Shown here: piece after piece, positions 190 through 36,696 of the stretch | How the letters are laid out: each line of letters begins with the position of its first letter | Numbering within the stretch: position 1 is the stretch's first letter | Notes under the pieces: generated by a model | What the model was told of the DNA's origin: nothing | Database searches by the model: none | The model's input: only the letters and a program-made list of their open reading frames with translations | From: a bacterium | GTDB taxonomy: Bacteria > Patescibacteriota > Doudnabacteria > UBA920 > 2-01-FULL-46-14 | Assembly (NCBI GenBank): GCA_030700065.1 | Contig: JAUYKH010000041.1 | Coordinates: forward strand, 4,659-68,658 | Direction: 5' to 3' | Length of the DNA stretch: 64,000 bases | Translations under genes and position numbers: made by a program

Positions 190-1311
190 ATGATCCCATA
201 TAGCCGACAAACAATTGACCAAAGCGATGTCCGGACAGTGCTTTGGGTTTTAAATTCCGAGTATCTTACGCAAGGACCGAAGATTTTGAAGTTCGAAAAA
301 GCCCTCTCCAGAGCCTACGGCGCGCGTTACGCAGTTGCGGTATCAAGCGGCACGGCGGCTCTGCACTTGGCTTATCTGGCGGCAGGTCTCGAGAAGGGGA
401 ATGAGGTAATTACCACTCCGAATACTTTTGCCGCCACTGCGAATATGCTCCTCGCGGTGGGGGCGAAGCCAATCTTTTGCGATATTCGCCAAGACACCTA
501 CAATGTTGACGAAAAGCAGATAGAAAGATTGATCAATAAAAGGACAAAGGCGATAGTGCCGGTTCACTTTGCCGGACAACCTTGCGACATGGATGCTATT
601 TTGCGAATTGCAAGAAAACACAAGCTGATTGTCATTGAGGACGCCTGTCACGCGCTGGGCGCGAGATACAAGAATCGAAAAATAGGCTCTTTAGGTTCGG
701 ATATGAGTGTGTTTAGTTTTCATGCTGTCAAAGCCATTACGACTGGCGAAGGCGGCGCCATTTTGACAGATAACAAAATTTTTTATCAAAAGCTTTTGCT
801 GCAGCGAACCCATGGGATTTCCAAAAATCACCAAGGGAAGAACATAATGACGACCCTCGGCTATAATTACCGGTTGACAGACATACAGGCGGCTCTGGGA
901 ATTTCTCAACTGCAAAAGCTTGATAAGTTTATAAAGATGCGCCGGCAAATATCCACTTGGTATAGGAGTGAACTCAAAGACTTGCAAGCGGTAATTTTGC
1001 CAAAAGAAGTAAAAGGTAACAATTCCGGATGGCATTTGTATGTGATTCTGCTGAAAAATTCGAGCTTGCGCGATTCGCTTTGGTCTTATTTGAGGGGAAA
1101 AGGCATTGGCGCGAATTTTCATTACCCGGCGGTTTACGGCCACCCTTATTATCGAAAAATCGGATATCAAAAAACGAAACTTCCAGTAATGGAGGATTAT
1201 CAACGCTCTTGCCTGACCCTGCCATGCTACCCCGCGCTTTCGCGCCGACAGGTTGGTTTCATCGCCAGGACAATTAAACAGTTTTTCATAAAGCATGGAA
1301 AAGCTCACTGA
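190..1311 (+). CDS. DegT/DnrJ/EryC1/StrS-family PLP-dependent sugar aminotransferase (PseC-like)
   Basis: 373 aa. N-term MIPYSRQTIDQSDV..LTQGPKILKFEKAL and putative PLP-lysine context SFHAVKAITTGEGG are typical of DegT/PseC sugar aminotransferases. Confidence 0.8.
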   Translation: MIPYSRQTIDQSDVRTVLWVLNSEYLTQGPKILKFEKALSRAYGARYAVAVSSGTAALHLAYLAAGLEKGNEVITTPNTFAATANMLLAVGAKPIFCDIRQDTYNVDEKQIERLINKRTKAIVPVHFAGQPCDMDAILRIARKHKLIVIEDACHALGARYKNRKIGSLGSDMSVFSFHAVKAITTGEGGAILTDNKIFYQKLLLQRTHGISKNHQGKNIMTTLGYNYRLTDIQAALGISQLQKLDKFIKMRRQISTWYRSELKDLQAVILPKEVKGNNSGWHLYVILLKNSSLRDSLWSYLRGKGIGANFHYPAVYGHPYYRKIGYQKTKLPVMEDYQRSCLTLPCYPALSRRQVGFIARTIKQFFIKHGKAH

Positions 1312-2311
1312 CGAGTACCCCTACAACAAAAAACATACCCGACATCAAGCCAACCGACTCGCGGAAATTGAGGGTTATCTTTCGGGGTTTTGGAGGCGGC
1401 CCGCTTTGGTTTTGGGTTCCGCGCGAGCGGTAATTTACCACACCGTGAAGCATTTCGGACTTAAACGTCAGGATCACATTCTGGTGCCCGATTTTTTGTG
1501 CCAGTCAATCCTCAATATTTTGAACACCACGAGTTTCCCCGTGAAATACCCGGATGAGCGAACACGAGCTGTGCTGGTTTTTCACCAGTGGGGCTATCCG
1601 CAGAAAATGGATGAGGTGATGGGCGAGGCAAAGAGGCGCGGGTTTATCGTCGTTGAAGATTGCGCGCACGCGTTCGATTCTAAATACAAGGGCCGTTTGG
1701 TGGGAACCTTTGGCGATGCAGCCGTGTTTAGCTTTGCCAAAATGTTTCCGACTTATTTGGGAGGAGTGTTGCTGTCCGAGAATGAGGAGCTAATGAGGCA
1801 TGTTAGTAAGGAGCGGCAGTTGCGCAATAATTTTTCGAATCGTCTGTTCAATTTTTTCGCGTTCAAGATTGCGAAGCGAAGCTTTGAGAAGGGAAAATCA
1901 AGATTTTGGCTCGACCTCATTTACCTCAAGAGCATCCACTATCTAAATGTCGGCAAAAAGGCGTTGGAATTTTTGCCCTCCGACATTACCGCGTTCACGA
2001 GAGGTTTGTCAGCACGCAGAGCAAACTATCTATATCTTCGCGGTGCCATAAGAAGGGAATATCTGATTCCCGATTGGGAGGATGATATTGAAGCTAACCC
2101 AATACTTATGCCGGTATTTTTACCGAGTGAAAAGTTGCCCGCGGCCAGCCAGACGCTTCTCAAGGCGGGGATACTGGCGGAAGTTTTGCATTTTGACGTG
2201 AATCGCAATGTTTTTGCGGCAAATTACCGGAAGTGCTTGGCCATCCCTTGTCATCAGGAAATTGAAAAAGAGCAGCTTTCCTTAATTGCAGAAACAATTA
2301 ACCGCATTTGA
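1295..2311 (+). CDS. Divergent DegT-like aminotransferase-fold protein (paralog A)
   Basis: 338 aa. ILVPDFL..RTRAVLVFHQWGYPQKMDEVM..VVEDCAHAF..FSFAKMFP has the DegT core pattern (ViEDcAha, SF-K lysine). Clearly paralogous to 3046-4044. Confidence 0.5.
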   Translation: MEKLTDEYPYNKKHTRHQANRLAEIEGYLSGFWRRPALVLGSARAVIYHTVKHFGLKRQDHILVPDFLCQSILNILNTTSFPVKYPDERTRAVLVFHQWGYPQKMDEVMGEAKRRGFIVVEDCAHAFDSKYKGRLVGTFGDAAVFSFAKMFPTYLGGVLLSENEELMRHVSKERQLRNNFSNRLFNFFAFKIAKRSFEKGKSRFWLDLIYLKSIHYLNVGKKALEFLPSDITAFTRGLSARRANYLYLRGAIRREYLIPDWEDDIEANPILMPVFLPSEKLPAASQTLLKAGILAEVLHFDVNRNVFAANYRKCLAIPCHQEIEKEQLSLIAETINRI

Positions 2312-3049
2312 ATGGGCAATATTCAATTTTTCAATGAGTTAGCTCGCCGGAAGATTTTGTCCAATGCACGGATGGCCTCGCTGGATTTTGGCGTCTATGA
2401 TCGGACCTTTGCTGATATCGATCGAAAAATTGAATTTCTGCCGGGCGATGTGGTTTTGGATTTGGGCGGAGGGACAGGGCAGATTTCGGGTTTGATCGCC
2501 GGAAAGGCAGGTCGCGTCGTTCTCGCGGACGGGGCCGGGGAAGCACTTCGGGCCGCGCGCGAAATTTTAGCCGATTTGCCGAACCTGTCTTTCGTACACT
2601 TGAATATAGAGCAAAGTCCGTTGGTTTTTGCAAACTCTGCTTTCGATAAGATTATATGTTATAGCGTCGTACATTATTTAAAGGATCAAAGCAGTTTCGC
2701 GGCGCTCATCTCCGAAATGCTAAGGATCGTTAAATCTGAAGGCAAGATTTTTATCGGTGATATTCCGCTTTCCGATAAAGGAAAGCGCTATCTTGACGAA
2801 CGAAAGAAGCATTTTTTTCAAAACTTGTTGGGGAACTTGAAATATTATTTTAGGAAATTTTTGACCGCGTTTTTTTACCGCCTGAAAGGAATTCGCGACA
2901 CACAAGTTTCGGGCGTGGTTTATTCGAAGGACGGTATGGAAGAAGTGCTTAGCCGTATCGGGGGTATAAACTATCGCTTCCTCGAACAGGATGCCTCGCT
3001 TCCCTTCGCCAATTCACGTGAAGATTTGTTGATTATCAAAAAACAATGA
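2312..3049 (+). CDS. Class I SAM-dependent methyltransferase
   Basis: 245 aa with motif I VLDLGGGTGQISGLIA and downstream acidic/hydrophobic methyltransferase motifs. Confidence 0.6.
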   Translation: MGNIQFFNELARRKILSNARMASLDFGVYDRTFADIDRKIEFLPGDVVLDLGGGTGQISGLIAGKAGRVVLADGAGEALRAAREILADLPNLSFVHLNIEQSPLVFANSAFDKIICYSVVHYLKDQSSFAALISEMLRIVKSEGKIFIGDIPLSDKGKRYLDERKKHFFQNLLGNLKYYFRKFLTAFFYRLKGIRDTQVSGVVYSKDGMEEVLSRIGGINYRFLEQDASLPFANSREDLLIIKKQ

Positions 3050-4044
3050 TTTATGAGGTGGAACAACCTAATTTTTTGGATCTTTTGGGCTTTGCGAGGC
3101 CGCGACCCAACAACCCCGATCTCCTAAAGGGGATTACTCTTGTCGGGTCAGGGAAAGGCGCCTTGGCTTTGGTCTTGAGGCACTTGAAAGAACGAGGGGT
3201 TATCAGAAACAAATTGGACGAGATACTTGTTCCAGATTGGCTGGGGTATTGGGTGTATAACCAAATTCAACCCTACGCTTTTCCGGCCAAGCGTTTGTCA
3301 GATCGCACGCGGGCGATATTGGTGTATCATCAATACGGTTTTCCGCAGGACATGGACAAAATAATGGCAACAGCTAGAGAAAAAAATTTGGTCGTCATTG
3401 AAGATTGCGCGCATGCGGTTTTTTCCCATTACCGGGGAAGGCGTTTGGGCTTCATTGGCGATTATTCGATATTTAGCTTTTCCAAGTGGGCGTTTTGTTA
3501 CGCCCTCGGCGGAGTACGGGGAAATGATGAATTTGAGGAATTTGCCAAAGAGGCAATAGGGAATACCGCCTTCGGATTGACAATGTTCAAGGATAGCGCG
3601 AAATGGTTTTATGAAAAAAGCAGACACTCCAAATATGCGAATTATTTGATTCAGATGTCTTATGCCCTCTATGGGCAGGCCCTCAAACCGGGGGCAGCCG
3701 CAGTCCGCCTTTTGAAGGCCAAACTGGAAGCGGAGATTAATTTGCGGCAAAAACGCTACCAGGAGTTCCGTCGAGCAACCGATTCGTCAGGTCTGTGCGA
3801 CCGTTTGGAAAAGGATGGGGTAACGCCTTATGTCATCCCGATACGAGTAAGGTTGGATCGGCAGGAATCCGTCGTCAGCGCGTTGGCCGTAGCCGGCATA
3901 GAATCCGGGATTTATCAATTTGACGCAAACCGCAATTTATTGGCGCCAAATTATATCTCGACCGTTTGGATTCCCTGCCACGGTGGAATATCGGAAAATG
4001 CATTTGCACAAATCATTGAAATTGTAAAAAAAAACAATGAATGA
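3046..4044 (+). CDS. Divergent DegT-like aminotransferase-fold protein (paralog B)
   Basis: 332 aa. ILVPDWL..RTRAILVYHQYGFPQDMDKIM..VIEDCAHAV..FSFSKWAF is collinear with paralog A. Confidence 0.5.
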   Translation: MIYEVEQPNFLDLLGFARPRPNNPDLLKGITLVGSGKGALALVLRHLKERGVIRNKLDEILVPDWLGYWVYNQIQPYAFPAKRLSDRTRAILVYHQYGFPQDMDKIMATAREKNLVVIEDCAHAVFSHYRGRRLGFIGDYSIFSFSKWAFCYALGGVRGNDEFEEFAKEAIGNTAFGLTMFKDSAKWFYEKSRHSKYANYLIQMSYALYGQALKPGAAAVRLLKAKLEAEINLRQKRYQEFRRATDSSGLCDRLEKDGVTPYVIPIRVRLDRQESVVSALAVAGIESGIYQFDANRNLLAPNYISTVWIPCHGGISENAFAQIIEIVKKNNE

Positions 4045-5080
4045 TTTTCGGACAATTTCAATCGAAACTAGCCCGCAGGAGTTCACTGATGTATGGGTGA
4101 AGTTCCAGGCTACGCACGAAACAAGTCCTTACTATCTGCCCACGACCTTGGAATATTTTCGCGCCTACTCCGGGAAGCGTCTTGCGGCAGAACGAAGTTT
4201 TGTCGTGGTTAGGGGGGATGAACCGGTGGCATTAGCCTTCGTTCCGATTGAAGAGGTGAAGGGGAAAAGGAGCATCAGCATCGGACAATATTTTACCCTT
4301 GCTCCTCTCTGGGAGCCTCTAAAAAATCTTTTGGGTTTTGTTATGGCTGAAATTGACCGTATCGCGACAGAAACTAAAGCCGCGAAAGCAATGTTTCGCA
4401 TCGACCTTTTGCAGCACAAACAATATCCCTATAATTTTTTATTGAACTACGATTATTTAAACACCTCACTTTTGGGATATTTGGTTGACTGTGGGAGTCC
4501 GTCCTGGCGGCGCAACCACGAGCGCGCGATTCGAAAAATTTCTTCTAATCCCGATTATTCAGTTTATATTATGGATCAAACCAATAAAGACTATGTTGTT
4601 CACGAACATTACCGCCAATTGCATCACAAAGCCGCAGGCAAGGTAACTCGGAGCAAGGAAAGTTTTGATTTGCAGTATCGGATGCTTGAAGAAGGAAATG
4701 CGATTTTGGTTGGCCTTAAACACAAAGATCGATTTATTGCGTTTACTTACTTTATGTTTTATAAAAACGGCGCTATCTCTTTTTCTGCCGCAGATGATCC
4801 CGAATATAACGAGTTGCCATTGTATCACATTATCAATGCCGAAGGATTAAAGTATTTGCAAAAGCATGGGGTTTTAGAAATGGACATGGGTCAGCCGCTT
4901 AATATCTCAAACCAGCCCTTTAATTTTCCCGATCAAAAACAGAAAAATATCACGCTTTTCAAAACCGGCTTCGAGGGGCGGTTTATGAATGAATTTCGCG
5001 CAATTAAGTATTTCACCAAAGAAACGTTTTTAGAGGACCAGCAAAATTTTTCCAAAAGGTATCAAGAGGCATTGTCATGA
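4037..5080 (+). CDS. FemAB/BioF2-like GNAT-fold acyltransferase (putative)
   Basis: 347 aa, about twice GNAT length. The C-terminal half (ILVGLKHKDRFIAFTYFMFYKNGAISFSAADDPEY) resembles the Acetyltransf_6/FemAB family. Call made by pattern only. Confidence 0.4.
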   Translation: MNDFRTISIETSPQEFTDVWVKFQATHETSPYYLPTTLEYFRAYSGKRLAAERSFVVVRGDEPVALAFVPIEEVKGKRSISIGQYFTLAPLWEPLKNLLGFVMAEIDRIATETKAAKAMFRIDLLQHKQYPYNFLLNYDYLNTSLLGYLVDCGSPSWRRNHERAIRKISSNPDYSVYIMDQTNKDYVVHEHYRQLHHKAAGKVTRSKESFDLQYRMLEEGNAILVGLKHKDRFIAFTYFMFYKNGAISFSAADDPEYNELPLYHIINAEGLKYLQKHGVLEMDMGQPLNISNQPFNFPDQKQKNITLFKTGFEGRFMNEFRAIKYFTKETFLEDQQNFSKRYQEALS

Positions 5081-6024
5081 ACAAAAATACCCCAATTTTA
5101 ATAATAGGTTTTGGTTCAATCGGGCGCAGGCACTACGCGAATTTGTTGAAACTAGGTTATAAGAATGTCTGGGTTTATGATATTAATCAGAGACGAATTA
5201 AGAATTACGAATTAAGAATTACGAAATTGAGTAAGTCGAACCTGCAAAATTTCAAAATAGTATTTGTCTGTTCGCCGAACCACCTGCATTTAAAACATGC
5301 CCTCGCGGCCGTAAAGGCCGGATGTGATCTGTTCATTGAAAAACCGCTGTCGCATAATTTGAAAGGGGTTGCGTGGTTAAGCAAACTGGCACGGAAAAAT
5401 AGGTTAATCAATATGGTTGCGTGTAATATGCGTTTTCATCCGGCTCTCGAGTTTGTCAAAAAATGTTTACAAACTCGAAAACTTGGGAAAATTTATAGCA
5501 TAGCTCACGAATGCGGGCATTATTTACCATTTTGGCGAAAGGCAGAGGATTATCGAAAAAATTACGCAGCCAAAAAATCAACCGGCGGGGGAATTATTCT
5601 GGATGACGTTCACGAATTCGATCTGCTTTTCTGGCTAAACAACTTTTCAGCAGTGAAAAAACGATTTTTGATTTTTGATCACATTTCAGATTTGCGGATT
5701 GAAACCGAGGACATGAGTTTGGCTGGTTACGAGTTTGATAATAAAGTTTTTGGTTTGGTAAAGAGCGATTACCTGCAGAAGTATTACAGTCGAAGCGTAA
5801 AAATTGTCGGTGAAAAAGGTAACTTGATTTGGGATTACAAGGAAAATATCGTTTGGTTTGCTGACGAAAAAAGAAAAAACAAGTTATTGACAATCAAGAA
5901 TTACGATTCAAACGAGATGTATGTCCGCGAGCTAGAATATTTTTTGAACAGCGTACGTACTCGAAAAAAAACCGAAAACGATATAGCCCATGCCCGCACA
6001 GTCCTTAAAAATTGTTTGCCATGA
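5077..6024 (+). CDS. Gfo/Idh/MocA-family NAD(P)-dependent oxidoreductase
   Basis: N-terminal Rossmann ILIIGFGSIGRRHYANL and VFVCSPNHLHLKHALAAVKAGCDLFIEKPL pattern. Confidence 0.6.
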   Translation: MNKNTPILIIGFGSIGRRHYANLLKLGYKNVWVYDINQRRIKNYELRITKLSKSNLQNFKIVFVCSPNHLHLKHALAAVKAGCDLFIEKPLSHNLKGVAWLSKLARKNRLINMVACNMRFHPALEFVKKCLQTRKLGKIYSIAHECGHYLPFWRKAEDYRKNYAAKKSTGGGIILDDVHEFDLLFWLNNFSAVKKRFLIFDHISDLRIETEDMSLAGYEFDNKVFGLVKSDYLQKYYSRSVKIVGEKGNLIWDYKENIVWFADEKRKNKLLTIKNYDSNEMYVRELEYFLNSVRTRKKTENDIAHARTVLKNCLP

Positions 6025-8670: not shown

Positions 8671-8676
8671 TCTGTT

Positions 8677-10433: not shown

Positions 10434-10434
10434 C

Positions 10435-11115: not shown

Positions 11116-11124
11116 ATAAATTCC

Positions 11125-15800: not shown

Positions 15801-15809
15801 GGAGAAAAC

Positions 15810-16577: not shown

Positions 16578-16595
16578 AAATAATTAGCTAAAAGT

Positions 16596-18427: not shown

Positions 18428-18428
18428 A

Positions 18429-22583: not shown

Positions 22584-22585
22584 GT

Positions 22586-26948: not shown

Positions 26949-26965
26949 CTTTCTAAAAATCGTTT

Positions 26966-27940: not shown

Positions 27941-27951
27941 TTTTAGAAGCC

Positions 27952-30861: not shown

Positions 30862-31973
30862 AAGTCAAAATTTTCGGAGCGGGATCAATTGGAAATCACC
30901 TTACCCAGGCCTCAAGGCGGAAGGGGTGGGATGTCACGGTCGTGGATATTGATCCGGCCGCGCTCAAGCGCATGAAAGAAGAGATTTATCCAAAGCGATA
31001 CGGTAGTTGGGACCCGCAAATCAAACTGATGACCCCCGAAGAGGCACCAAAGGGAGGATTTGACGTCATCATGGTAGGTACGCCGCCGCCGGCCAGACTG
31101 AAAGTCGCCATGGAGGCTTTGGAGGGAAAACCTAGAGTTTTACAGCTTGAAAAGCCCTACTTCGTCCCCATGCTAGATGAAAGCCTGAAACGTGAAAACC
31201 AAGAGTTTATGGAGAAGGCAAAATCTTTGGGCATAAAAGTAGTGGTTGGGTACGAATACGCTCTTGGAGAGAGCGCAAAAAAGGCGTTAGATTTTATTTC
31301 GGATAAGGGTTTTGGAAAAATCCGGGTTTTGGAAGTTGCCGTGCGGGAGGAATGGAGCGGGGCATTGGCTGCCCATCCATGGCTCAAAGGGCCGGCTGAT
31401 ACCTATCTTGGTTTTTGGCAGAAAGGGGGAGGCGCGTTAAGCGAGCATTCGCATGCTATACACTACTGGCAACATTTCGCCAGTCACTTAGGTCTGGGAA
31501 CGATTGATGAAGTTTCTGCATCAATGAGAATGGTAAAAGACGCGTTGTTAGATTACGACGAATTAACATATTTGAACATAAAAACTGACCAGAGTTTTAC
31601 CGGCACGATTGTTCAGGATGTGGTAACCGATCCTCCGTATCTGTCTTTGTTTATTCAAAGAGAGAAGGCCTTTGTTAAATGGCTGCGACGGTCTGTTCCG
31701 GGCAAAGGAAATGTCGAGACAATCACGTATGGGAAAAAAGACGAGAATGGTTGGCTGGTCACGACAGAAGATATCCCCGTCGCGAGACCGGACGACTTTT
31801 ACCCAGAGATAAACCATATTGCTGATCTGCTCGAGGAAAAAGTGAAAATTGAGGATTCCCCGATTCGTTTGGAGATGGGTGCACACGTAACCGCGGTAGT
31901 GACGGCAGCACACGAGTCTCGGCTGAACAATGGAAAATTTATTAAAGTAACAAAATATGCCGGTTATCGATAA
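30858..31973 (+). CDS. NAD(P)-binding oxidoreductase (Gfo/Idh/MocA-like N-terminus)
   Basis: MKVKIFGAGSIGNHLTQASRRKGWDVTVVDID Rossmann fold. Confidence 0.45.
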   Translation: MKVKIFGAGSIGNHLTQASRRKGWDVTVVDIDPAALKRMKEEIYPKRYGSWDPQIKLMTPEEAPKGGFDVIMVGTPPPARLKVAMEALEGKPRVLQLEKPYFVPMLDESLKRENQEFMEKAKSLGIKVVVGYEYALGESAKKALDFISDKGFGKIRVLEVAVREEWSGALAAHPWLKGPADTYLGFWQKGGGALSEHSHAIHYWQHFASHLGLGTIDEVSASMRMVKDALLDYDELTYLNIKTDQSFTGTIVQDVVTDPPYLSLFIQREKAFVKWLRRSVPGKGNVETITYGKKDENGWLVTTEDIPVARPDDFYPEINHIADLLEEKVKIEDSPIRLEMGAHVTAVVTAAHESRLNNGKFIKVTKYAGYR

Positions 31974-32649
31974 AAAAATACTTGCGATCATCCCGGCCCG
32001 CGGCGGATCCAAAGGCTTGCCGGGCAAAAATATAAAATTGTTGGTGGGTAAACCGCTCATCGCTTATTCAATTGAAGCGGCAAAAAAATCAAAGCACGTT
32101 GATCGTGTAATCGTGACCAGCGACGACAAGAATATTTTGGAAACTTCTGCACCATTTGGGGCTGAACTTATCCAAAGACCCGCAGAGCTGGCGCTTGATG
32201 AAACCAAGATGCCTCCAGTAATCCAACATGTTATTGACACATTAAAAACAAAGGATAATTATCGACCGGATATTGTTTTGCTTTTGCAGCCAACGTGTCC
32301 ATTGCGCACGAGCAAGCATATAGATGAGGCCATCGAGCATTTTTCGGCCAATGATTTTGACAGCCTCCTAAGCGTTCTGGTTTTATACAAGCAGCAGTTT
32401 GTGGTCGAGAATGAAAAATACTTGCAGCCGCTTCTGAAGGAAAGGCCAAACCGGCAGGACAGAAAGCCGGTGATATTGGAAAATGGCGTGATTTATTTGA
32501 CCATGATAAATCTGATGGAGCAGGGGACAATAGTGGGTGGAAAGATAGGTTATTATCCGATGCATATCGCTGATTCGCCAAACATTGACGACCAGGAAGA
32601 TTTTTTGTTTGCCGAAAGATTGATAAAAGGATCGCGTGACCATGAATAA
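31957..32649 (+). CDS. neuA: Acylneuraminate cytidylyltransferase (NeuA-like) #2
   Basis: ILAIIPARGGSKGLPGKNIKLLVGKPLIAYSIEAA..LLQPTCPLR. Confidence 0.75.
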   Translation: MPVIDKKILAIIPARGGSKGLPGKNIKLLVGKPLIAYSIEAAKKSKHVDRVIVTSDDKNILETSAPFGAELIQRPAELALDETKMPPVIQHVIDTLKTKDNYRPDIVLLLQPTCPLRTSKHIDEAIEHFSANDFDSLLSVLVLYKQQFVVENEKYLQPLLKERPNRQDRKPVILENGVIYLTMINLMEQGTIVGGKIGYYPMHIADSPNIDDQEDFLFAERLIKGSRDHE

Positions 32650-33730
32650 AGAAATCAAAATTGGACGAGTGGTTATTGGAGAGCAATATCCGTTTGTAGT
32701 CATTCCCGAGGCGGGCGATAATCACCACGGCAGCCTCGCCTCCGCCAAAGAGATTGCCCATGCCGCGCTTGAGGCCGGATCCAAGATTATTAAATTTCAA
32801 CTGCACTTGCCGGACGAGGAGATGGATCGAGAGGGCATGCGTCAAACGTCCTCGGAGATGTTTAAGAAATGGGGCGATTTGTACGGCTTTATTCAGAAAA
32901 ATCAGTTGTCTGTCGAAGATCACTCGGAACTTATCCGTTACTGCGAAAAGATCGGCATCCAGTATTTTTGCACACCTTTCTCGGCGAAGGCGGCACAAAT
33001 ACTAACAGAAATTGGCGGTGATGCCGCGTTCAAAATTGGTTCTGGAGAAACCGAAGATCTGCCAATGATTGAGGAGGTCGCTGCTTTGGGTAAGCCGATG
33101 ATGGTTTCCACTGGAATGAGCACTTATGAGGAGATTGATTTAACAGTCGCTGCTATTAAGCAGAAAAATATCCCGTTTTCGTTGGCGCATTGCATATCGT
33201 CCTATCCACCAAAGTCCCTTTCTGAACTTCACCTGGGAGTCATCAGAGAGCTTGGAGCGCGCTACGATACAGTTGTCGGTTTTTCGGATCATACGCCGCC
33301 CGAAGGGCTGGTAATCGAGGGAGGAAAGCCAATTTCAGAAGAGGCAATTTTGTTCGGCGCGATGGGCGCAGGTGCCAGATATCTAGAGAAACATTTTACT
33401 GTCGATAGAAAAGGAAAAGACGCGGATAGCTGGTTTTCTCATGATCCGCAGACCCTCAAAGATCTTATAAATACTGCCGCCGAACTTGATAAGGCGATGG
33501 ATAATAAGCGGGAGGTGTTTGAAGAGGAAAAAGGCGTCTGGATTTGGGCCAAGCGGAGCCTGGTCGCGGCCGAAGATATTCCGGCCGGAGCGAAGATTAC
33601 CCGAGAAATGCTCAAAAGCAAACGTCCGGGAACAGGAATTAGGTCCAAAGATTATCACTCGATTTTGGGGAAAATTGTTAAACACAACATCGCCAAGGAT
33701 AAAATATTACTGTTAACTGATTTAGAATGA
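32636..33730 (+). CDS. neuB: NeuB-family sialic-acid-type synthase #3
   Basis: FVVIPEAGDNHHGSLASAKEIAHAALEAGSKIIKFQLH..AHCISSYPP..GFSDHTPP plus SAF tail. Confidence 0.8.
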   Translation: MTMNKEIKIGRVVIGEQYPFVVIPEAGDNHHGSLASAKEIAHAALEAGSKIIKFQLHLPDEEMDREGMRQTSSEMFKKWGDLYGFIQKNQLSVEDHSELIRYCEKIGIQYFCTPFSAKAAQILTEIGGDAAFKIGSGETEDLPMIEEVAALGKPMMVSTGMSTYEEIDLTVAAIKQKNIPFSLAHCISSYPPKSLSELHLGVIRELGARYDTVVGFSDHTPPEGLVIEGGKPISEEAILFGAMGAGARYLEKHFTVDRKGKDADSWFSHDPQTLKDLINTAAELDKAMDNKREVFEEEKGVWIWAKRSLVAAEDIPAGAKITREMLKSKRPGTGIRSKDYHSILGKIVKHNIAKDKILLLTDLE

Positions 33731-34881
33731 GAAAAATTTGCGCAATCACGGCAAACCGGGCGGATTTCAGCCGGATGGAAACCGCGCTGCGGGAAATAAA
33801 AAAGCATAAAGATCTCGAGCTGCAGCTGGTCGTCATGGGATCTCACCTTTTGTACGATACCGGCAACACGATCGAAGAGATCAGGCAAAAGGGGTTTGGT
33901 GTTGACCGGACTATTTATATGGAAGTGAGCGGCAGCAATCCTTCGACAATGAGCAAATCAGTGGGGCTCGCGATTATCGAACTCTCCTCGGTCTTGGATA
34001 ATTTAAAACCTGATCTGGTTTTGGTTCCAGTGGATCGTTTTGAGTCCCTCGCCATGGGGGTGGCGGCGTCTCTGATGAATTTGCCTATCGCACACATTCA
34101 GGGCGGCGAGATTACTGGCACGATCGATGAGAGCATTAGGCATGCTCTAACCAAGTTGTCGCATATTCATTTTCCGGCCACTGAACTCTCCCGTCAGCGA
34201 ATTATCCGGATGGGGGAGCCGGAAGACCTGGTGTTCAATGTCGGGTGTCCGGGGACTGATTTATTGCTTGAGGCGCCGGTTTTGAACGCCAAGCAGACGA
34301 TTGAGTTGCTTAACCAGGATCTTGCCAATCCGCTCGATCCCGAGAGACCTTTTATATTGATGGTGCAGCATCCAGTGACAACGGAGTTTGGAAGTGCCAC
34401 TAAAGAGATTACGGAATCAATGGAGGCCATGTCCGAGTTTGAAGAGCAGATCATTATTCTCTGGCCGAATATTGACGCGGGAGCGGATGAATTGTCCAGG
34501 GTCCTGCGAAAATATACAATTTTTGCGAAAAACGGAAAAGGAATGAGGATTTTTAAACATTGGCCGACCGAAACTTTCGCCAATATCATGCGTAATGCGG
34601 TCTGCCAGGTAGGAAATTCCTCGAGCGGGATCAGGGAATCGTGTTATTTCGGCACCCCGGTAGTGAATGTTGGCTCGCGCCAACAGGATCGGGAAAGGGG
34701 GAAAAACGTGATGGATGTAGGGTATGATCGTCGCGAGATCGCCGCGGCTGTCCGCCAGCAAATCAAACACGGGAAGTATAAGATGGAGGCAATATATGGC
34801 GATGGCACAGCCGGGAGACAAATTGCCGATATTTTGGCATCCATAAAAATTCCAAGCGTACAAAAGAGGATCAGATACTAG
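33727..34881 (+). CDS. neuC: UDP-N-acetylglucosamine 2-epimerase (hydrolysing; NeuC-like)
   Basis: MRKICAITANRADFSRMETALREI..LVVMGSHLL..HIQGGEITGTIDESIRHALTKLSHIHF is the Epimerase_2 pattern. Confidence 0.8.
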   Translation: MRKICAITANRADFSRMETALREIKKHKDLELQLVVMGSHLLYDTGNTIEEIRQKGFGVDRTIYMEVSGSNPSTMSKSVGLAIIELSSVLDNLKPDLVLVPVDRFESLAMGVAASLMNLPIAHIQGGEITGTIDESIRHALTKLSHIHFPATELSRQRIIRMGEPEDLVFNVGCPGTDLLLEAPVLNAKQTIELLNQDLANPLDPERPFILMVQHPVTTEFGSATKEITESMEAMSEFEEQIIILWPNIDAGADELSRVLRKYTIFAKNGKGMRIFKHWPTETFANIMRNAVCQVGNSSSGIRESCYFGTPVVNVGSRQQDRERGKNVMDVGYDRREIAAAVRQQIKHGKYKMEAIYGDGTAGRQIADILASIKIPSVQKRIRY

Positions 34882-34883
34882 AT

Positions 34884-35807
34884 ATGTCTAAAAGCAAGGG
34901 TCCGGATTTTTTGATAGTCGGGTTGGAAAGAAGCGGAACAAGCTGGGTTTCGGCCCTGCTGAATAGTCATCCGGAGATTGCCTGCATCCCCCCGATGCCG
35001 TTTCGCAAGGAGTCGGGAGAATTTAGAGAAATCGGGGAGATTCATTTGTTTAATACGCTCGCGAGTCTAGAAGTTGGAACAACAGACAAATTTACACGGC
35101 CGGTCGCCAACTACAAAACGACTGATATCAAAATATTCGCAGATTTTGCTGACCTGGAAGGAAAAATTCCCAAAGAGGAGCTGTATAATACATTTATTGA
35201 GCGGTACAACGAGCTTTGCGAATCTTATCGGAAAGGCAAGAAACTTGTGGGAGAGTCTACGCCGGCCTATGTCTTTCACCTTAATTTTATTGACCGATTT
35301 TATCCCGGGATTAAAAAACTTTGCATCATCCGCGATCCCAAAGACAAAGTCGTCTCCTGGCATTTCAATCTTGTGAGAAAAGGGCGGAAACAGGAAGACG
35401 AAAAAATTTCCGATGAATTTATCAAGGAATATTGCGAGACGAGGATTGCCAAAGAATATCAGGCCTTGCTGGATTACCAGGGGCAGATTCACTGTTTTAC
35501 TTACGAAGCCCTGACACACAACCCCCGCAAGGTTGTATCGGGAGTTTTGCGGCACCTTGAAGTAAATGACGACATTGCGCTTACTGACCAAATGGTCAAA
35601 GAAGCATCGTTTGAAAATTTAACCGCAAAGGACAGCGGAAGGGGTAGACAGCAAGGCGAGCAATCTCTAAAAAGTCATTTCCGCAAAGGCATTATTGGAG
35701 ACTGGAAAACCCATCTAACCAATACCCAGATCCATTATATCGAGGGCGAGACCCTACAACTTCGGAAAGAGGTCTTCGAAAAGTACCGCGTCGATCCAAT
35801 CGAATAA
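34884..35807 (+). CDS. PAPS-dependent sulfotransferase
   Basis: 5'-PSB motif LERSGTSW and 3'-PB motif RDPKDKVVSWHF. Confidence 0.65.
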   Translation: MSKSKGPDFLIVGLERSGTSWVSALLNSHPEIACIPPMPFRKESGEFREIGEIHLFNTLASLEVGTTDKFTRPVANYKTTDIKIFADFADLEGKIPKEELYNTFIERYNELCESYRKGKKLVGESTPAYVFHLNFIDRFYPGIKKLCIIRDPKDKVVSWHFNLVRKGRKQEDEKISDEFIKEYCETRIAKEYQALLDYQGQIHCFTYEALTHNPRKVVSGVLRHLEVNDDIALTDQMVKEASFENLTAKDSGRGRQQGEQSLKSHFRKGIIGDWKTHLTNTQIHYIEGETLQLRKEVFEKYRVDPIE

Positions 35808-35820
35808 TTAACCCGAATTC

Positions 35821-36696
35821 ATGTCGAAATTTTTATTTGAGTTTGAAATGCTCGAGGCTTGTCCGGTTTGCGAAAGCCGGGTGATGGTTCCCAATGGCCG
35901 CATCAGCTGGCTGGAGAACGATTTTTGGTATGTGGTCTGTCCCGGATGCGGGCTCAAATATATGAATCCTCGGCCCACAACGCAGTCTTACCGCGATTTT
36001 TATCGGGATTATTTCTGGCAGCAAAAAATTCGAAATGCCGGTTTCCGCGAAGCTGGCCAGACTTGGCAGGGGAAGCCGCAGGAATGGCACAACGAGGAGC
36101 CGTGGAAACCTGAAGATGGGAGAAAAATTTTTATGGACAAATTCAGGAAGGTAAGAGTAGATGCCATTTCTGGCGTTCTGCAAAAATGTATTAATTTGGG
36201 GAAGGACTCCCTGATTCTTGAGGTGGGATGTGGTTTCCCGGCGACCCTGGAAGCACTGCGCGACAAATACGATGCGCAGGTTTATGCTATTGAGCCGTCG
36301 GAAGATGCAAGGCAGATAATCGGAGAAAAAAATATCGAGCTTCTAGGATCTTACGCCGAAGAGCTCCGGGACTTGGCCGCAGGGGACTTACGGTTTGACG
36401 CGATCATCTTTTCTCATGTTCTTGAAAACGCCACTGATCCCTTGCAGGTTATTCGGTGGGCAAATTCATGCCTTTCCGCCAATGGCGTCATTTATATTCA
36501 AACTCCAAATTTGCTAGTATTTGATCAGATGAATCCTTATCATCCTTTCATTTTCTCCAGAAATTCGCTCCGAGTACTCATAGAGAAAGCCGGTCTTGTT
36601 TACGAACCCGTTTCACAGCCAATAGACAAAATGTTGACCGTAATATGTTCTAAAAAACGACAATCCAATTGGCGTATCAATCCGGATGGAAAATAG
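35821..36696 (+). CDS. Class I SAM-dependent methyltransferase with N-terminal Cys4 zinc-ribbon
   Basis: CPVCESR..CPGCG then LEVGCGFPATLEAL motif I. Same architecture as 12252-13364. Confidence 0.55.
   Translation: MSKFLFEFEMLEACPVCESRVMVPNGRISWLENDFWYVVCPGCGLKYMNPRPTTQSYRDFYRDYFWQQKIRNAGFREAGQTWQGKPQEWHNEEPWKPEDGRKIFMDKFRKVRVDAISGVLQKCINLGKDSLILEVGCGFPATLEALRDKYDAQVYAIEPSEDARQIIGEKNIELLGSYAEELRDLAAGDLRFDAIIFSHVLENATDPLQVIRWANSCLSANGVIYIQTPNLLVFDQMNPYHPFIFSRNSLRVLIEKAGLVYEPVSQPIDKMLTVICSKKRQSNWRINPDGK

What the first reader, a model, noticed from the sequence alone, without database searches (positions are those of the whole stretch)
190..36696. 36-kb single-strand glycan locus encoding three independent NeuB-type nonulosonic-acid synthases and three CMP-sugar cytidylyltransferases
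Three separate NeuB-like synthases are present (11125-12177, the C-domain of 13371-15800, and 32636-33730). Two are each paired with a NeuA-type cytidylyltransferase, at 17741 and 31957. The first module instead has a SpsF-type cytidylyltransferase (6012), a PseC-like and a class-III aminotransferase, an ATP-grasp and a HAD, suggesting a Pse/Leg-like or novel 9-carbon sugar. The second has an FAD-enzyme fusion, an SDR, an NAD-dehydrogenase and an AKR, which looks non-canonical. The third is a textbook NeuC-NeuB-NeuA Neu5Ac set. Three parallel 9-carbon-sugar pathways within one tightly coupled operon-like locus is unusual. Together with methyl-, carbamoyl-, sulfo- and deacetyl-tailoring it predicts a very elaborate surface glycan.
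Basis: partly seen in the sequence, partly recalled or inferred. Interest (0 to 1): 0.75.

Follow-up and report, generated by a model that had tools for sequence, protein, structure and literature searches.

The report
Three-sialic-acid-like-sugar glycan locus in CPR bacterium
A tiny-genome candidate-phyla-radiation bacterium carries one long operon-like locus with three different pathways for sialic-acid-like sugars; two are recognisable (pseudaminic acid and a neuraminic-acid type), and the third is built on a widespread enzyme fusion for which I found no published description.

Summary
Three NeuB+SAF synthases (11125-12177; aa 468-809 of 13371-15800; 32636-33730) and three CTP_transf_3 cytidylyltransferases (6012, 17741, 31957) lie in an unbroken run of 37 co-directional ORFs. 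Independent assemblies reproduce most of the gene order, so it is not chimeric.

- **Source:** a MAG contig whose proteins NCBI labels Candidatus Doudnabacteria (CPR).
- **Module 1** is a pseudaminic-acid pathway. PseB (just upstream of the window), PseC and PseI pass equivalog HMMs. Canonical PseG and PseH are absent, and there is heavy tailoring.
- **Module 3** is a divergent, CPR-specific NeuC-NeuB-NeuA set. It is probably Neu5Ac-type but not "textbook".
- **Module 2** is the interesting part. It is a UDP-galactopyranose-mutase-like flavodomain fused to NeuB, with a fold-orphan NAD(P) dehydrogenase and a NeuA-type cytidylyltransferase. The fusion is 60-80% identical across many bacterial and archaeal phyla. 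I found no description of it in the searched literature, and it almost never has a NeuC-type hydrolase nearby.

Several NeuB genes in one locus or genome is not new: Campylobacter jejuni, Leptospira and other loci fetched here show it. The locus also extends beyond the reported coordinates on both sides.

The parts
1..185 (+). 3' end of pseB (UDP-GlcNAc 4,6-dehydratase, inverting); the gene starts upstream of the window
   Evidence: Window 1-3522 matches L019 from position 4187 (3521/3522 identical). The full L019 gene, 3382-4368, scores 449.9 on TIGR03589 PseB against a cut-off of 407.75. Upstream of it in L019 are a 479-aa Capsule_synth transferase and a 600-aa ABC exporter.
190..1311 (+). 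PseC aminotransferase
   Evidence: TIGR03588 PseC 448.8 bits, cut-off 423.5. Pfam DegT_DnrJ_EryC1 1.8e-122.
1295..5080 (+). Tailoring block: DegT-like/PLP_IMCC1989 (1295-2311), methyltransferase (2312-3049), second DegT-like (3046-4044), FemAB/GNAT-type acyltransferase (4037-5080)
   Evidence: Pfam and NCBIfam hits. PF27889 PLP_IMCC1989 comes from the precomputed annotation. The two DegT-like proteins are 32% identical paralogues.
5077..6024 (+). Gfo/Idh/MocA oxidoreductase
   Evidence: Pfam GFO_IDH_MocA 1.1e-14 plus C-terminal domains.
6012..6770 (+). Cytidylyltransferase 1 (SpsF/6oew type), presumed CMP-Pse synthetase
   Evidence: CTP_transf_3 3.5e-28. Only weak KdsB-type NCBIfam hits. Best solved relative is 6oew 'cytidylyltransferase', 1.7e-44.
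6767..11115 (+). Further module-1 tailoring: class-III (GSA-like) aminotransferase 6767-8053, DUF218 8050-8670, SDR 8677-9426, ATP-grasp 9384-10433, HAD hydrolase 10435-11115
   Evidence: A similar pairing of SpsF-type cytidylyltransferase and GSA-like aminotransferase recurs in loci L007 and L011.
11125..12177 (+). NeuB #1 = pseudaminic acid synthase PseI
   Evidence: TIGR03586 PseI 483 bits, cut-off 340. Best solved relative is C. jejuni PseI 8h2c, 2e-84. Clusters with it at bootstrap 99. Catalytic residues and the R314 equivalent (R316) are kept.
12252..13364 (+). Methyltransferase (Methyltransf_23)
   Evidence: Pfam 3e-18.
13371..15800 (+). UDP-galactopyranose-mutase-like flavodomain (aa 1-~445) fused to NeuB #2 (aa ~468-809)
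   Evidence: Pfam NeuB 3.5e-92, Amino_oxidase, NAD_binding_8 and GLF. NeuB_NnaB 387.9 bits, cut-off 399.65. N-domain: best solved relatives are UGMs, and it keeps GPHIYHT, FFKSYPEKIWG, R183, R311, Y381 and Y416. C-domain: E134 becomes D587, and R314 becomes G776. At least 120 clusters of 61-81% identical full-length homologues.
15810..16577 (+). SDR (FabG/glucose-1-dehydrogenase-like)
   Evidence: adh_short_C2 1e-54. 62% identical orthologue follows the fusion in L003.
16596..17744 (+). Conserved partner 'DH2': NAD(P)-Rossmann protein with no close solved relative
17741..18427 (+). Cytidylyltransferase 2 (NeuA type)
   Evidence: CTP_transf_3 6.5e-22. PseF HMM 146.7 bits, below cut-off 205.7. 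Best solved relatives are CMP-Neu5Ac synthetases 6ifd, 9ftb and 1eyr.
18339..19328 (+). Aldo-keto reductase (true start probably 18429)
   Evidence: Aldo_ket_red 5.1e-29. Gene call of 299 aa in L001.
19321..20829 (+). Capsule_synth/KpsS-like transferase, candidate ulosonic-acid transferase for module 2
   Evidence: PF05159 4.7e-6 and a weak BFO_1060 hit. Paralogue of the transferase upstream of pseB (35% over 137 aa, 2e-19).
20826..23374 (+). Carbamoyltransferase (20826-22583) and GT2 glycosyltransferase (22586-23374)
   Evidence: Carbam_trans_N/C 1.9e-46 and 6.7e-69; Glycos_transf_2 1.2e-24.
23380..26948 (+). PAPS supply: pyruvate-kinase barrel + PUA_2 + ATP sulfurylase + APS kinase fusion (23380-26130) and CysQ PAP phosphatase (26127-26948)
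26966..27940 (+). Extended SDR epimerase/dehydratase (GalE-like)
   Evidence: Epimerase 1.9e-57. GalE 194 bits (cut-off 262) and LegB 149 bits (cut-off 475), both below cut-off.
27916..29253 (+). BFO_1060-family / 'surface carbohydrate biosynthesis' transferase, candidate NulO transferase for module 3
   Evidence: NF046086 9.4e-15, TIGR04396 6.7e-8, both below cut-off. L030 calls a 375-aa gene here.
29243..31973 (+). Unknown 238-aa protein with a SAM-methyltransferase-like GxGxG motif (29243-29959), polysaccharide deacetylase (29956-30861), NAD-binding 'DH3' (30858-31973)
   Evidence: DH3 has no solved relative by sequence and is not similar to DH2.
31957..32649 (+). Cytidylyltransferase 3 (NeuA type)
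   Evidence: CTP_transf_3 7.3e-27. Best solved relatives are CMP-Neu5Ac synthetases 6ifd 1.5e-28, 1eyr and 1qwj.
32636..33730 (+). NeuB #3, divergent CPR-type synthase, probably Neu5Ac-type
   Evidence: NeuB 6.7e-57 and SAF 6.2e-12. NeuB_NnaB 249.7 bits, cut-off 399.65. Nearest named relatives are Parcubacteria, Patescibacteria, Giovannonibacteria and Nealsonbacteria. CPR clade bootstrap 100, sister to N. meningitidis NeuB at 77. Keeps R330 (=R314) and H57, and has a 13-aa insertion after SDHT.
33727..34881 (+). NeuC hydrolysing UDP-GlcNAc 2-epimerase
   Evidence: TIGR03568 392.2 bits, cut-off 235.9. Best solved relative is the human GNE epimerase domain 4zht at 284.6 bits, against LegG-type 5xvs at 203 bits.
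34884..36696 (+). Sulfotransferase (34884-35807) and methyltransferase (35821-36696)
36818..38769 (+). Two proteins with one N-terminal hydrophobic helix and no family match; the first (36818-37474) is 22.5% Ser+Thr. Candidate surface proteins or glycan acceptors.
38837..41092 (+). Wzy_C (O-antigen-ligase/PglL-like) membrane protein with C-terminal TPR
   Evidence: Wzy_C 7.1e-18 plus TPR. 11 predicted TM segments. The same architecture ends the NulO locus of a Giovannonibacteria genome (L024).
41096..42538 (-). Polyprenyl glycosylphosphotransferase (initiating enzyme)
   Evidence: Bac_transf 9.2e-64. TIGR03025 387.9 bits, cut-off 295.55.

Best explanation
This is a genuine surface-glycan locus of at least 45 kb from a CPR (Candidatus Doudnabacteria) bacterium. 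Its genes are co-directional apart from the convergent initiating phosphotransferase. It encodes three different CMP-activated 3-deoxy-2-ulosonic-acid pathways. Each has its own KpsS/BFO_1060-like transferase candidate. The locus also supplies methyl, carbamoyl, N-deacetyl and PAPS-dependent sulfo tailoring.

Module 1 (upstream pseB to 12177) makes a pseudaminic-acid derivative. The route is PseB, then PseC, then a non-canonical N-acylation and UDP-removal step, then PseI, then an SpsF-type cytidylyltransferase. Extra amino, acyl and methyl decoration comes from the DegT-like, FemAB, ATP-grasp, class-III aminotransferase and methyltransferase genes.

Module 3 (about 26966-34881) makes a neuraminic-acid-type sugar. 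NeuC converts UDP-GlcNAc to ManNAc, NeuB3 condenses it with PEP, and a NeuA-type enzyme makes the CMP-sugar. These are CPR-specific, divergent versions of the enzymes. The product may then be de-N-acetylated, oxidised or methylated.

Module 2 (13371-19328) is a horizontally acquired cassette. It comprises the UGM-like flavodomain fused to NeuB, an SDR, the fold-orphan NAD(P) enzyme DH2, a NeuA-type cytidylyltransferase and an AKR. It makes an as yet unknown CMP-ulosonic acid.

My inferred mechanism for module 2 is as follows. The reduced flavin of the UGM-like domain attacks C1 of an NDP-sugar, expels NDP and opens the ring, as in UGM. Hydrolysis of the adduct then hands an acyclic aldose to the fused NeuB domain for condensation with PEP. 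This would replace the NeuC/LegG/PseG hydrolase that the cassette lacks.

The glycan is probably started on polyprenyl phosphate by the Bac_transf enzyme. It would be exported by the upstream ABC transporter and transferred by the Wzy_C/TPR protein to a surface protein or lipid.

Shown: domain identities, residue conservation, gene order, and the distribution and context of homologues.
Inferred: the sugar identities, the pairing of each cytidylyltransferase and transferase with a module, the flavin mechanism, and the acceptor.
For: Locus reality:
- The locus is continuous and tightly spaced.
- Independent assemblies tile it.

Host:
- NCBI labels the identical proteins 'Candidatus Doudnabacteria bacterium' or 'bacterium'.
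- NeuB3's nearest named relatives are Parcubacteria, Patescibacteria, Giovannonibacteria and Nealsonbacteria.
- The closest named relative of DH2 is from Buchananbacteria, at 65%.
- A Giovannonibacteria NulO locus ends with the same Wzy_C/TPR protein.

Module 1:
- PseB scores 450 (cut-off 408), PseC 449 (cut-off 423.5) and PseI 483 (cut-off 340).
- PseI groups with C. jejuni PseI at bootstrap 99.

Module 3:
- NeuC scores 392 (cut-off 236).
- NeuC matches the GNE epimerase domain at 285 bits against 203 for LegG.
- NeuB3 keeps R314 and H57 and is sister to N. meningitidis NeuB at bootstrap 77.
- CTP3's best solved relatives are CMP-Neu5Ac synthetases.
- There is no aminotransferase or acetyltransferase in this module.
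- The NeuB-NeuC-CTP trio recurs in other CPR genomes.

Module 2:
- The architecture is constant in at least 120 clusters at 61-81% identity. These come from Omnitrophota, Gammaproteobacteria, Nitrospina, Nitrospirota, Elusimicrobia, Marinimicrobia, Thermodesulfobacteriota, Margulisbacteria and Nitrososphaerales. A Pelagibacteraceae locus carries it at 49% identity.
- Of the 12 genome-collection loci with the full-length fusion, a DH2 homologue follows it in 11 and a cytidylyltransferase lies just downstream in 11. The same order is seen in two further loci.
- The UGM fold is supported (Foldseek E 3e-23, TM 0.73-0.82). The UGM motifs are aligned residue by residue.
- 13 of 14 fusion loci have no NeuC-like gene within 10 kb.
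- In Omnitrophota, a GHMP kinase and a sugar-1-P nucleotidyltransferase sit directly upstream of the fusion. In the marine locus the nucleotidyltransferase lies a few genes upstream.
- The fusion-SDR2-DH2-CTP2 genes have GC 0.49-0.53, against 0.45 (MT2) and 0.45 (AKR) for the genes flanking them.
- R314, the sugar-contacting arginine of NeuB, is replaced by an invariant Gly in the fusion family.
Against: - No canonical PseG or PseH is in the window, so the middle of the Pse route is unassigned.
- No LegI reference sequence was available. A Leg-type product for NeuB3, or for the fusion's NeuB domain, is therefore not excluded by phylogeny. Some JGI records label fusion homologues 'N,N'-diacetyllegionaminate synthase'.
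- The flavin 'hydrolase' role has no precedent that I could find and rests on gene absence plus motif conservation.
- Protoporphyrinogen-oxidase-type folds match the N-domain nearly as well as UGM.
- Inter-domain geometry is not confidently predicted (pTM 0.62).
- DH2, DH3, SDR2 and AKR have no assigned step.
- The CPR assignment rests on database labels and neighbours' taxonomy, not on a marker-gene phylogeny done here.
- No expression or chemical data exist.
Confidence: 0.65

Rival explanations
1. The N-terminal domain of the fusion is an ordinary NDP-sugar pyranose-furanose mutase, or another FAD oxidoreductase. It would supply or modify a different sugar of the same glycan. It would be fused to NeuB only for co-expression. 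The NeuB domain would then use an aldose made elsewhere, for example a Leg- or Pse-type trideoxyhexose from module-1-like enzymes.
For: - UGM motifs and fold are fully consistent with a normal mutase.
- PPO-type oxidases match the fold nearly as well.
- Many fusion loci in other phyla also carry DegT aminotransferases and 4,6-dehydratase-like SDRs that could make diamino-trideoxyhexoses.
- JGI labels some members LegI.
- NeuB_NnaB scores 388 bits, only just under the 400-bit cut-off.
Against: - The fusion is invariant in architecture and 60-80% identical across distant phyla. That argues for functional coupling rather than incidental fusion.
- NeuC/LegG-type hydrolases are missing from 13 of 14 loci.
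- The window's cassette has no aminotransferase or acetyltransferase of its own.
- The sugar-contacting Arg314 is replaced by Gly in the whole family.
Confidence: 0.25
2. Module 3 makes a legionaminic-acid-type (or other di-amino) sugar rather than Neu5Ac. It would use the hydrolysing 2-epimerase as LegG and borrow aminotransferase and acyltransferase steps from module 1.
For: - TIGR03568 covers both NeuC and LegG.
- NeuB3 and CTP3 are below all equivalog cut-offs.
- A LegB-like extended SDR opens the module (149 bits).
- Deacetylase-containing Leg clusters are known, for example in Ca. Kuenenia (preprint 10.64898/2026.04.20.719630).
- No LegI reference was in my tree.
Against: - NeuC is much closer to the human GNE epimerase domain (285 bits) than to A. 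baumannii LegG (203 bits).
- NeuB3 is sister to a true Neu5Ac synthase (bootstrap 77) and shares its H57.
- No LegC or LegH homologue is in or near the module.
- LegB scores 149 bits against a cut-off of 475.
Confidence: 0.25
3. The triple arrangement is an artefact. It could be a chimeric metagenome assembly or a mis-binned contig joining pieces of different organisms. Alternatively, one or more copies could be decaying, non-functional paralogues.
For: - The source is a MAG.
- Module 2 has higher GC than its neighbours and its closest relatives are outside CPR.
- Window 3523-11875 was not covered by an independent contig.
Against: - The module junctions 1/2 (L001), 2/sulfation block (L031) and sulfation block/3 (L030, from a different run, SRR13727534) are reproduced with the same order and essentially identical sequence.
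- ORFs are intact, overlapping and co-directional.
- Catalytic residues are kept in all three synthases.
- The GC shift is what an integrated horizontally acquired cassette would show.
Confidence: 0.05

Closest known systems
Pseudaminic acid pathway (PseB-PseC-PseH-PseG-PseI-PseF) of Campylobacter jejuni / Helicobacter pylori
   Same: PseB, PseC and PseI orthologues pass equivalog HMMs. PseI is 43% identical to C. jejuni PseI (8h2c) and groups with it. A cytidylyltransferase lies in the same module.
   Different: There is no recognisable PseH or PseG. The cytidylyltransferase is SpsF/6oew-type rather than PseF. Eleven extra tailoring genes sit between pseC and pseI: two degenerate DegT-like proteins, a FemAB-type acyltransferase, a Gfo oxidoreductase, a class-III aminotransferase, DUF218, an SDR, an ATP-grasp, a HAD and a methyltransferase.
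Bacterial Neu5Ac pathway NeuC-NeuB-NeuA (E. coli K1, Neisseria meningitidis)
   Same: The same three enzyme families are adjacent. NeuC passes its equivalog HMM. NeuB3 keeps the metal ligands, the catalytic acids and Arg314. CTP3's best solved relatives are CMP-Neu5Ac synthetases.
   Different: NeuB3 is only 35% identical to N. meningitidis NeuB, scores 250/400 on the equivalog model and has a 13-residue insertion. Gene order is NeuA-NeuB-NeuC. The clade is essentially confined to CPR, apart from one MAG labelled 'archaeon'. It is embedded with a deacetylase, an orphan NAD-binding protein and a BFO_1060-type transferase.
Multi-NulO organisms: Campylobacter jejuni (NeuB1 Neu5Ac, NeuB2 Leg, NeuB3 Pse; PMC7591256) and the Leptospira interrogans NulO cluster (PMC3438082)
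   Same: [quoted passage not shown]
   Different: Here all three sit in one co-directional operon-like run, in a CPR bacterium. One of the three is the UGM-like fusion type rather than a Leg synthase.
UDP-galactopyranose mutase (Glf/UGM)
   Same: The N-domain of 13371-15800 has the UGM fold (TM 0.73-0.82). It keeps the flavin-proximal His loop (GPHIYHT), the FFxxYxxKxWG motif, and the residues aligning with K. pneumoniae R174, R280, Y314 and Y349.
   Different: It shares only about 15-21% identity with solved UGMs. It is fused to a NeuB synthase and occurs without galactofuranosyltransferase context. I propose, without testing, that it releases an acyclic sugar rather than a furanose nucleotide.
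Tannerella forsythia NulO transferases (BFO_1060 family; PMC5420450) and KpsS/KpsC Kdo transferases (Pfam Capsule_synth)
   Same: The three candidate transferases (upstream of pseB, 19321 and 27916) give weak hits to these families, which use CMP-ulosonic acid donors.
   Different: All hits are far below curated cut-offs. Donor and acceptor specificity are unknown.

Membership tests
NeuB / nonulosonic acid synthase family (all three ORFs) | NeuB TIM-barrel domain (PF03102) followed by SAF/antifreeze-like domain (PF08666) | tested here: met
   all three are far above gathering scores.
NeuB / nonulosonic acid synthase family (all three ORFs) | Metal-binding His215/His236 and catalytic/PEP-binding residues of N. 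meningitidis NeuB (residue roles recalled from the published structure, not tested) | tested here: met
   E25, K53, Q55, K129, S132, S154, Y186, S213, D214, H215, E234, H236 and D247 are conserved in all three. The fusion has E134D and R314G.
Pseudaminic acid pathway | PseB inverting 4,6-dehydratase | tested here: met
   L019:3382-4368, continuous with window 1-185. TIGR03589 449.9 bits, cut-off 407.75.
Pseudaminic acid pathway | PseC aminotransferase | tested here: met
   TIGR03588 448.8 bits, cut-off 423.5.
Pseudaminic acid pathway | PseH N-acetyltransferase and PseG UDP-sugar hydrolase | tested here: not met
   No ORF from 190 to 42538, nor in L019, hit a PseH or PseG model in NCBIfam. The FemAB/GNAT protein at 4037 is a possible substitute for PseH. 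No PseG substitute was identified. The rest of the genome was not available.
Pseudaminic acid pathway | PseI synthase | tested here: met
   TIGR03586 483 bits, cut-off 340.25. Bootstrap 99 with C. jejuni PseI.
Pseudaminic acid pathway | PseF CMP-Pse synthetase | tested here: inconclusive
   CTP1 (6012) is CTP_transf_3 but has no PseF hit. CTP2 and CTP3 hit TIGR03584 at 147 and 125 bits, below the 205.7 cut-off.
Neu5Ac pathway (NeuC/NeuB/NeuA) | Hydrolysing UDP-GlcNAc 2-epimerase NeuC | tested here: met
   TIGR03568 392.2 bits, cut-off 235.9. Closer to the GNE epimerase domain than to LegG.
Neu5Ac pathway (NeuC/NeuB/NeuA) | N-acetylneuraminate synthase at equivalog level | tested here: not met
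   NeuB3 scores 249.7 bits on TIGR03569 against a 399.65 cut-off. It is only sister to N. meningitidis NeuB at bootstrap 77. Substrate is not testable here.
Neu5Ac pathway (NeuC/NeuB/NeuA) | CMP-Neu5Ac synthetase NeuA | tested here: inconclusive
   CTP_transf_3 7.3e-27. Best solved relatives are CMP-Neu5Ac synthetases over the full length, at 1.5e-28. No equivalog model was passed.
Legionaminic acid pathway | LegB dehydratase, LegC aminotransferase and LegH acetyltransferase next to LegG/LegI/LegF | tested here: not met
   LegB model scores 149 bits (cut-off 475) at 26966. The LegC model scores only 260 bits (cut-off 420) on PseC. There is no LegH. No LegI-specific model or reference was available.
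UDP-galactopyranose mutase family (N-domain of 13371-15800) | FAD-binding GxGxxG, UGM fold, flavin-proximal His loop GPHIFHT, diphosphate-binding Arg pair and Tyr residues | tested here: met
   ILGAGPLGL, GPHIYHT, R183, R311, Y381 and Y416 align with K. pneumoniae UGM motifs and are invariant in 40 homologues. Foldseek to 4dsg gives E 3e-23. TM relative to bacterial UGMs is up to 0.82.
UDP-galactopyranose mutase family (N-domain of 13371-15800) | Pyranose-furanose mutase activity on a UDP-sugar | not testable with these tools
   This needs an enzyme assay with reduced flavin.

The most novel reading that the evidence does not exclude
The UGM-like-NeuB fusion, its always-adjacent fold-orphan NAD(P) enzyme (DH2) and a cytidylyltransferase together define a previously undescribed ulosonic-acid pathway. 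It would be horizontally mobile and spread across many bacterial and archaeal phyla. In it, flavin-mediated opening of an NDP-sugar replaces the NeuC/LegG/PseG hydrolase step and feeds an acyclic aldose directly to the synthase. Its product could be one of the unassigned CMP-ulosonic acids seen by mass spectrometry in environmental microbes. One example is the C10 species in Magnetospirillum (preprint 10.64898/2026.04.20.719630). In a CPR episymbiont, it would be one of three acidic capping sugars on one surface glycan.
Probability: 0.25. Interest if true: 0.85.

Novelty: new variant of a known kind. Interest (0 to 1): 0.62.

Why it matters
- **CPR biology.** CPR bacteria have small genomes and few biosynthetic pathways, and are thought to live attached to hosts (background knowledge, not tested here). 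A locus of at least 45 kb devoted to one elaborately capped, sulfated and carbamoylated acidic glycan suggests that surface sugar identity is central to their lifestyle. I found no paper linking CPR to nonulosonic acids.
- **Enzymology.** The fusion family is large, strongly conserved, spread by horizontal transfer and unstudied. It offers a directly testable route to a new ulosonic acid and possibly a new use of UGM-type flavin chemistry.
- **Annotation practice.** The locus shows that 'N-acetylneuraminate synthase family protein' labels hide at least three functionally distinct enzyme types.

Tried and rejected
- **Exact look-up of PseC** found nothing. The neighbouring methyltransferase gave the upstream contig instead.
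- **Literature searches.** I found nothing relevant for the NeuB/FAD fusion, for UGM plus sialic acid synthase, or for CPR/Patescibacteria/Parcubacteria plus nonulosonic, pseudaminic or sialic acid. A search of the large NulO-synthase phylogeny paper for 'fus', 'FAD' and 'Patescibacteria' found no mention of the fusion or of CPR.
- **DH3.** It has no solved relative by sequence and is not a paralogue of DH2. The idea that the two modules share a conserved dehydrogenase was dropped.
- **LegI phylogeny.** This was not possible because no LegI sequence was obtainable with the tools. The tree uses C. jejuni PseI, B. subtilis SpsE and N. meningitidis NeuB, reconstructed from PDB alignments.
- **Amine-oxidase idea.** I considered that the FAD domain is an amine oxidase that makes the aldehyde substrate. 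I set this aside because the sequence motifs are specifically UGM-type.
- **Chimeric assembly.** I considered and rejected this.
- **RNA scans.** Rfam and tRNA scans found nothing in the locus itself.

Full report
**What is there**

From 190 to 41092 the window holds 37 consecutive + strand ORFs. The gaps between them range from -89 to +121 nt, and most ORFs overlap or lie within 20 nt.

Three proteins carry NeuB plus SAF domains:
- 11125-12177;
- residues 468-809 of 13371-15800;
- 32636-33730.

Three carry CTP_transf_3: 6012, 17741 and 31957. The E-values (1e-22 to 1e-92) leave no room for chance.

The three synthases are only 31-42% identical to one another. All keep the two metal-binding histidines and the acidic and PEP-binding residues of the N. 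meningitidis enzyme. None looks like a decaying copy.

**Source and integrity**

Exact-sequence look-ups show the window is part of a 74,289-nt NCBI MAG contig. Its proteins are also found, identical, in GCA_034374505.1, labelled Candidatus Doudnabacteria bacterium, a candidate phylum of the CPR. They are also found in two Logan read-set assemblies.

Short contigs of the second MAG match the window at 3521/3522 and 7645/7646 bases. Together with a 29.5-kb contig from another run, they reproduce these stretches of gene order:
- PseI-MT-fusion-SDR-DH2-CTP-AKR;
- transferase-carbamoyltransferase-GT2-PAPS fusion-CysQ-epimerase;
- the whole third module through the sulfotransferase.

A chimeric join at a module boundary is therefore very unlikely. 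Only window 3523-11875 lacks an independent tile.

The CPR assignment is supported indirectly by three observations:
- the nearest named relatives of NeuB3 are from Parcubacteria, Patescibacteria, Giovannonibacteria and Nealsonbacteria;
- the closest named relative of DH2 is from Buchananbacteria;
- a Giovannonibacteria NulO locus ends with the same Wzy_C-plus-TPR protein.

I did not build a marker-gene tree.

**Extent**

The locus is longer than reported. The first 185 bases of the window are the end of pseB. In the overlapping contig L019, pseB is preceded by a 479-aa Capsule_synth-type transferase and a HepA/MsbA/PglK-like ABC exporter.

Downstream of 36696 come four more genes:
- two proteins with a single N-terminal hydrophobic helix, one of them 22.5% Ser+Thr;
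- an 11-TM Wzy_C protein with TPR repeats (38837-41092);
- a convergent polyprenyl glycosylphosphotransferase (41096-42538, minus strand).

**Module 1**

PseB (450 bits, cut-off 408), PseC (449, cut-off 423.5) and PseI (483, cut-off 340) all pass NCBIfam equivalog thresholds. PseI's best solved relative is C. jejuni PseI (2e-84), and it groups with it at bootstrap 99. So the first pathway is pseudaminic acid, not Leg.

It is not canonical. No PseH or PseG model is hit anywhere in the locus. The cytidylyltransferase is of the SpsF/6oew type. Eleven tailoring genes lie between pseC and pseI. A FemAB/GNAT-type acyltransferase (4037) may take the PseH role. The UDP-removal step is unassigned.

**Module 3**

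NeuC passes its equivalog model (392, cut-off 236). It is much closer to the human GNE epimerase domain (285 bits) than to a LegG-type enzyme (203 bits). CTP3's best solved relatives are CMP-Neu5Ac synthetases.

NeuB3 keeps Arg314 and His57 of the meningococcal enzyme and is sister to it at bootstrap 77. No aminotransferase or acetyltransferase belongs to the module. A neuraminic-acid-type product is therefore the best reading.

The set is not textbook, for these reasons:
- NeuB3 scores 250 bits against a 400-bit cut-off and has a 13-residue insertion after the SDHT motif.
- It belongs to a clade (bootstrap 100) whose named members are nearly all CPR.
- The same NeuB-NeuC-cytidylyltransferase trio recurs in Parcubacteria and Giovannonibacteria loci.

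A Leg-type product cannot be excluded by phylogeny because I had no LegI reference.

**Module 2**

This is the unusual part. The 809-aa protein joins a flavin domain to a NeuB domain.

*The flavin domain.* By sequence, all 20 closest solved relatives are UDP-galactopyranose mutases, down to E 8e-6. By fold, the T. cruzi enzyme matches at E 3e-23, and TM relative to bacterial UGMs reaches 0.82. The alignment to K. pneumoniae UGM shows these correspondences:
- the flavin-proximal His loop, GPHIYHT for GPHIFHT;
- FFKSYPEKIWG for FFKGYTIKQWG;
- counterparts of R174, R280, Y314 and Y349.

All of these are invariant in 40 homologues. Their roles in UDP-sugar binding are recalled from the UGM literature.

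*The NeuB domain.* It keeps the metal and PEP sites. However, Glu134 is Asp, and Arg314 is an invariant Gly (KGPG instead of KRPG). From memory of the meningococcal structure, Arg314 is the SAF-domain arginine that contacts the N-acetyl group of ManNAc. Entries 4ipi and 4ipj are mutants of this residue. The change points to a different aldose substrate.

*Distribution.* The 120 best clusters (at 90% identity) all have this architecture, at 61-81% identity. They come from Omnitrophota, Gammaproteobacteria, Nitrospina, Nitrospirota, Elusimicrobia, Marinimicrobia, Thermodesulfobacteriota, Margulisbacteria, Magnetococcales and Nitrososphaerales archaea. A Pelagibacteraceae genome carries it at 49%. 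In the window, the fusion-to-CTP2 genes have GC 0.49-0.53, against 0.45 for the genes either side of them. Horizontal spread of a cassette explains both facts.

*Conserved neighbours.* Of the 12 genome-collection loci that encode the full-length fusion, 11 have a DH2 homologue directly after it, and 11 have a cytidylyltransferase just downstream. The Omnitrophota and marine loci show the same order. DH2 (16596) models confidently (pLDDT 92.6), yet only its Rossmann half matches anything solved.

In many phyla the cytidylyltransferase is itself fused to a second NeuB-like domain. In Omnitrophota, a GHMP kinase and a sugar-1-phosphate nucleotidyltransferase sit directly upstream of the fusion. 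In the marine locus the nucleotidyltransferase lies a few genes upstream. One Gammaproteobacteria MAG (L003) has the window's exact five-gene form.

A NeuC-like gene is absent within 10 kb in 13 of 14 fusion loci. In the fourteenth it sits beside a separate stand-alone NeuB.

**Mechanism proposed for module 2 (inferred)**

UGM chemistry starts with reduced-flavin attack at C1 of the NDP-sugar. This expels NDP and opens the ring through a flavin-iminium adduct. If that adduct is hydrolysed instead of re-closed, the product is the free acyclic aldose that a NeuB domain condenses with PEP.

This would explain three observations:
- the obligate fusion;
- the missing NeuC/LegG/PseG step;
- the adjacent NDP-sugar-forming genes in other phyla.

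SDR2, DH2 and the AKR would then adjust oxidation state, and CTP2 would make the CMP-sugar. I give this about 0.25-0.3. The main rival is an ordinary mutase or oxidoreductase fused for co-expression. I found no paper describing the fusion.

A 2026 preprint reports CMP-activated C10 ulosonic acids in Magnetospirillum without assigning genes. The fusion occurs in other magnetotactic lineages, but I could not test a link.

**Assembly of the glycan (inferred from families)**

Three weakly related Capsule_synth/BFO_1060-type proteins are candidate ulosonic-acid transferases. They sit upstream of pseB, at 19321 and at 27916, one beside each module. The families they resemble use CMP-Kdo or CMP-Pse/Leg donors (PMC5420450 for BFO_1060).

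The other components fit lipid-linked assembly followed by transfer to a surface protein or lipid:
- the initiating phosphotransferase;
- a GT2 glycosyltransferase;
- the ABC exporter;
- the Wzy_C/TPR protein.

A type IV pilus-like gene set with prepilin-type N-termini follows at 42.6-48 kb. The acceptor is unknown.

**How unusual is it?**

Three characterised NeuB enzymes in one genome is the C. jejuni textbook case (PMC7591256). Leptospira has several NulO synthases and CMP-synthetases in one cluster (PMC3438082). In the loci fetched here, 11 of 14 have two or more NeuB-like ORFs, and two (a Gammaproteobacteria MAG and a Pelagibacteraceae single-cell genome) have three within 22 kb. A Parcubacteria locus has two NeuB and three cytidylyltransferases.

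So the count of three is not new in itself. What is new is the combination in one operon-like run in a CPR bacterium, and above all the fusion-based cassette, for which I found no published description.

I rate the finding a new variant of a known kind, with interest 0.62.

Noticed in passing
window 23380-26130 (with 26127-26948 and 34884-35807): A 916-aa protein fuses a pyruvate-kinase barrel (no C-terminal PK domain) to PUA_2, ATP sulfurylase and APS kinase. It is followed by CysQ. An exhaustive search shows that the PK-barrel + ATP-sulfurylase architecture (~720-750 aa) recurs in dozens of 50%-identity clusters. The four-part form with APS kinase is rare: three full-length representatives of 904-930 aa. 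It may regenerate ATP from PEP for PAPS synthesis.
   Followed up: partly
window 36818-37474: A 218-aa protein with no family match. It has one N-terminal hydrophobic helix, is 22.5% Ser+Thr, and has repeated 'TG....YGNS.FG'-like motifs. It lies between the last tailoring gene and the Wzy_C/TPR protein, so it is a candidate glycosylation acceptor.
   Followed up: no
window 42623-47995: A type IV pilus / T2SS-like set: MshEN+T2SSE ATPase, T2SSF platform protein, and three small proteins. Two have prepilin-type N-termini (MKKNGFTIIET..., ...GVGFTLAEILVV...). It is directly adjacent to the glycan locus.
   Followed up: partly
L026/L027 13472-15223; L028 13595-15358; also L005, L006, L008, L010, L011, L013: In other phyla, the gene after the DH2 homologue is a 583-587-aa fusion of a second, very divergent NeuB-like domain (no SAF) with CTP_transf_3. 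B12-binding radical-SAM genes, a GHMP kinase and a sugar-1-P nucleotidyltransferase lie nearby. This is a second variant of the cassette, also apparently undescribed.
   Followed up: partly
window 13371-18427: The fusion, SDR2, DH2 and CTP2 genes have GC 0.49-0.53, against 0.45 for the genes immediately flanking them (MT2, AKR) and 0.38-0.49 for the rest of the biosynthetic genes up to 36696. This is consistent with recent horizontal acquisition of this cassette.
   Followed up: partly
window 47967-50495 (minus strand), 50548-50619, 55445-55518: An 841-aa protein with Mur-ligase middle and C domains (cyanophycin-synthetase-like size). tRNA-Arg(TCG) and tRNA-His(GTG) lie in the flanking chromosomal region.
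   Followed up: no
window 29243-29959: A 238-aa ORF with no Pfam or NCBIfam hit. It carries a class-I SAM-methyltransferase-like motif (VLELGGGLGT), so it may be a fourth methyltransferase in the locus.
   Followed up: no
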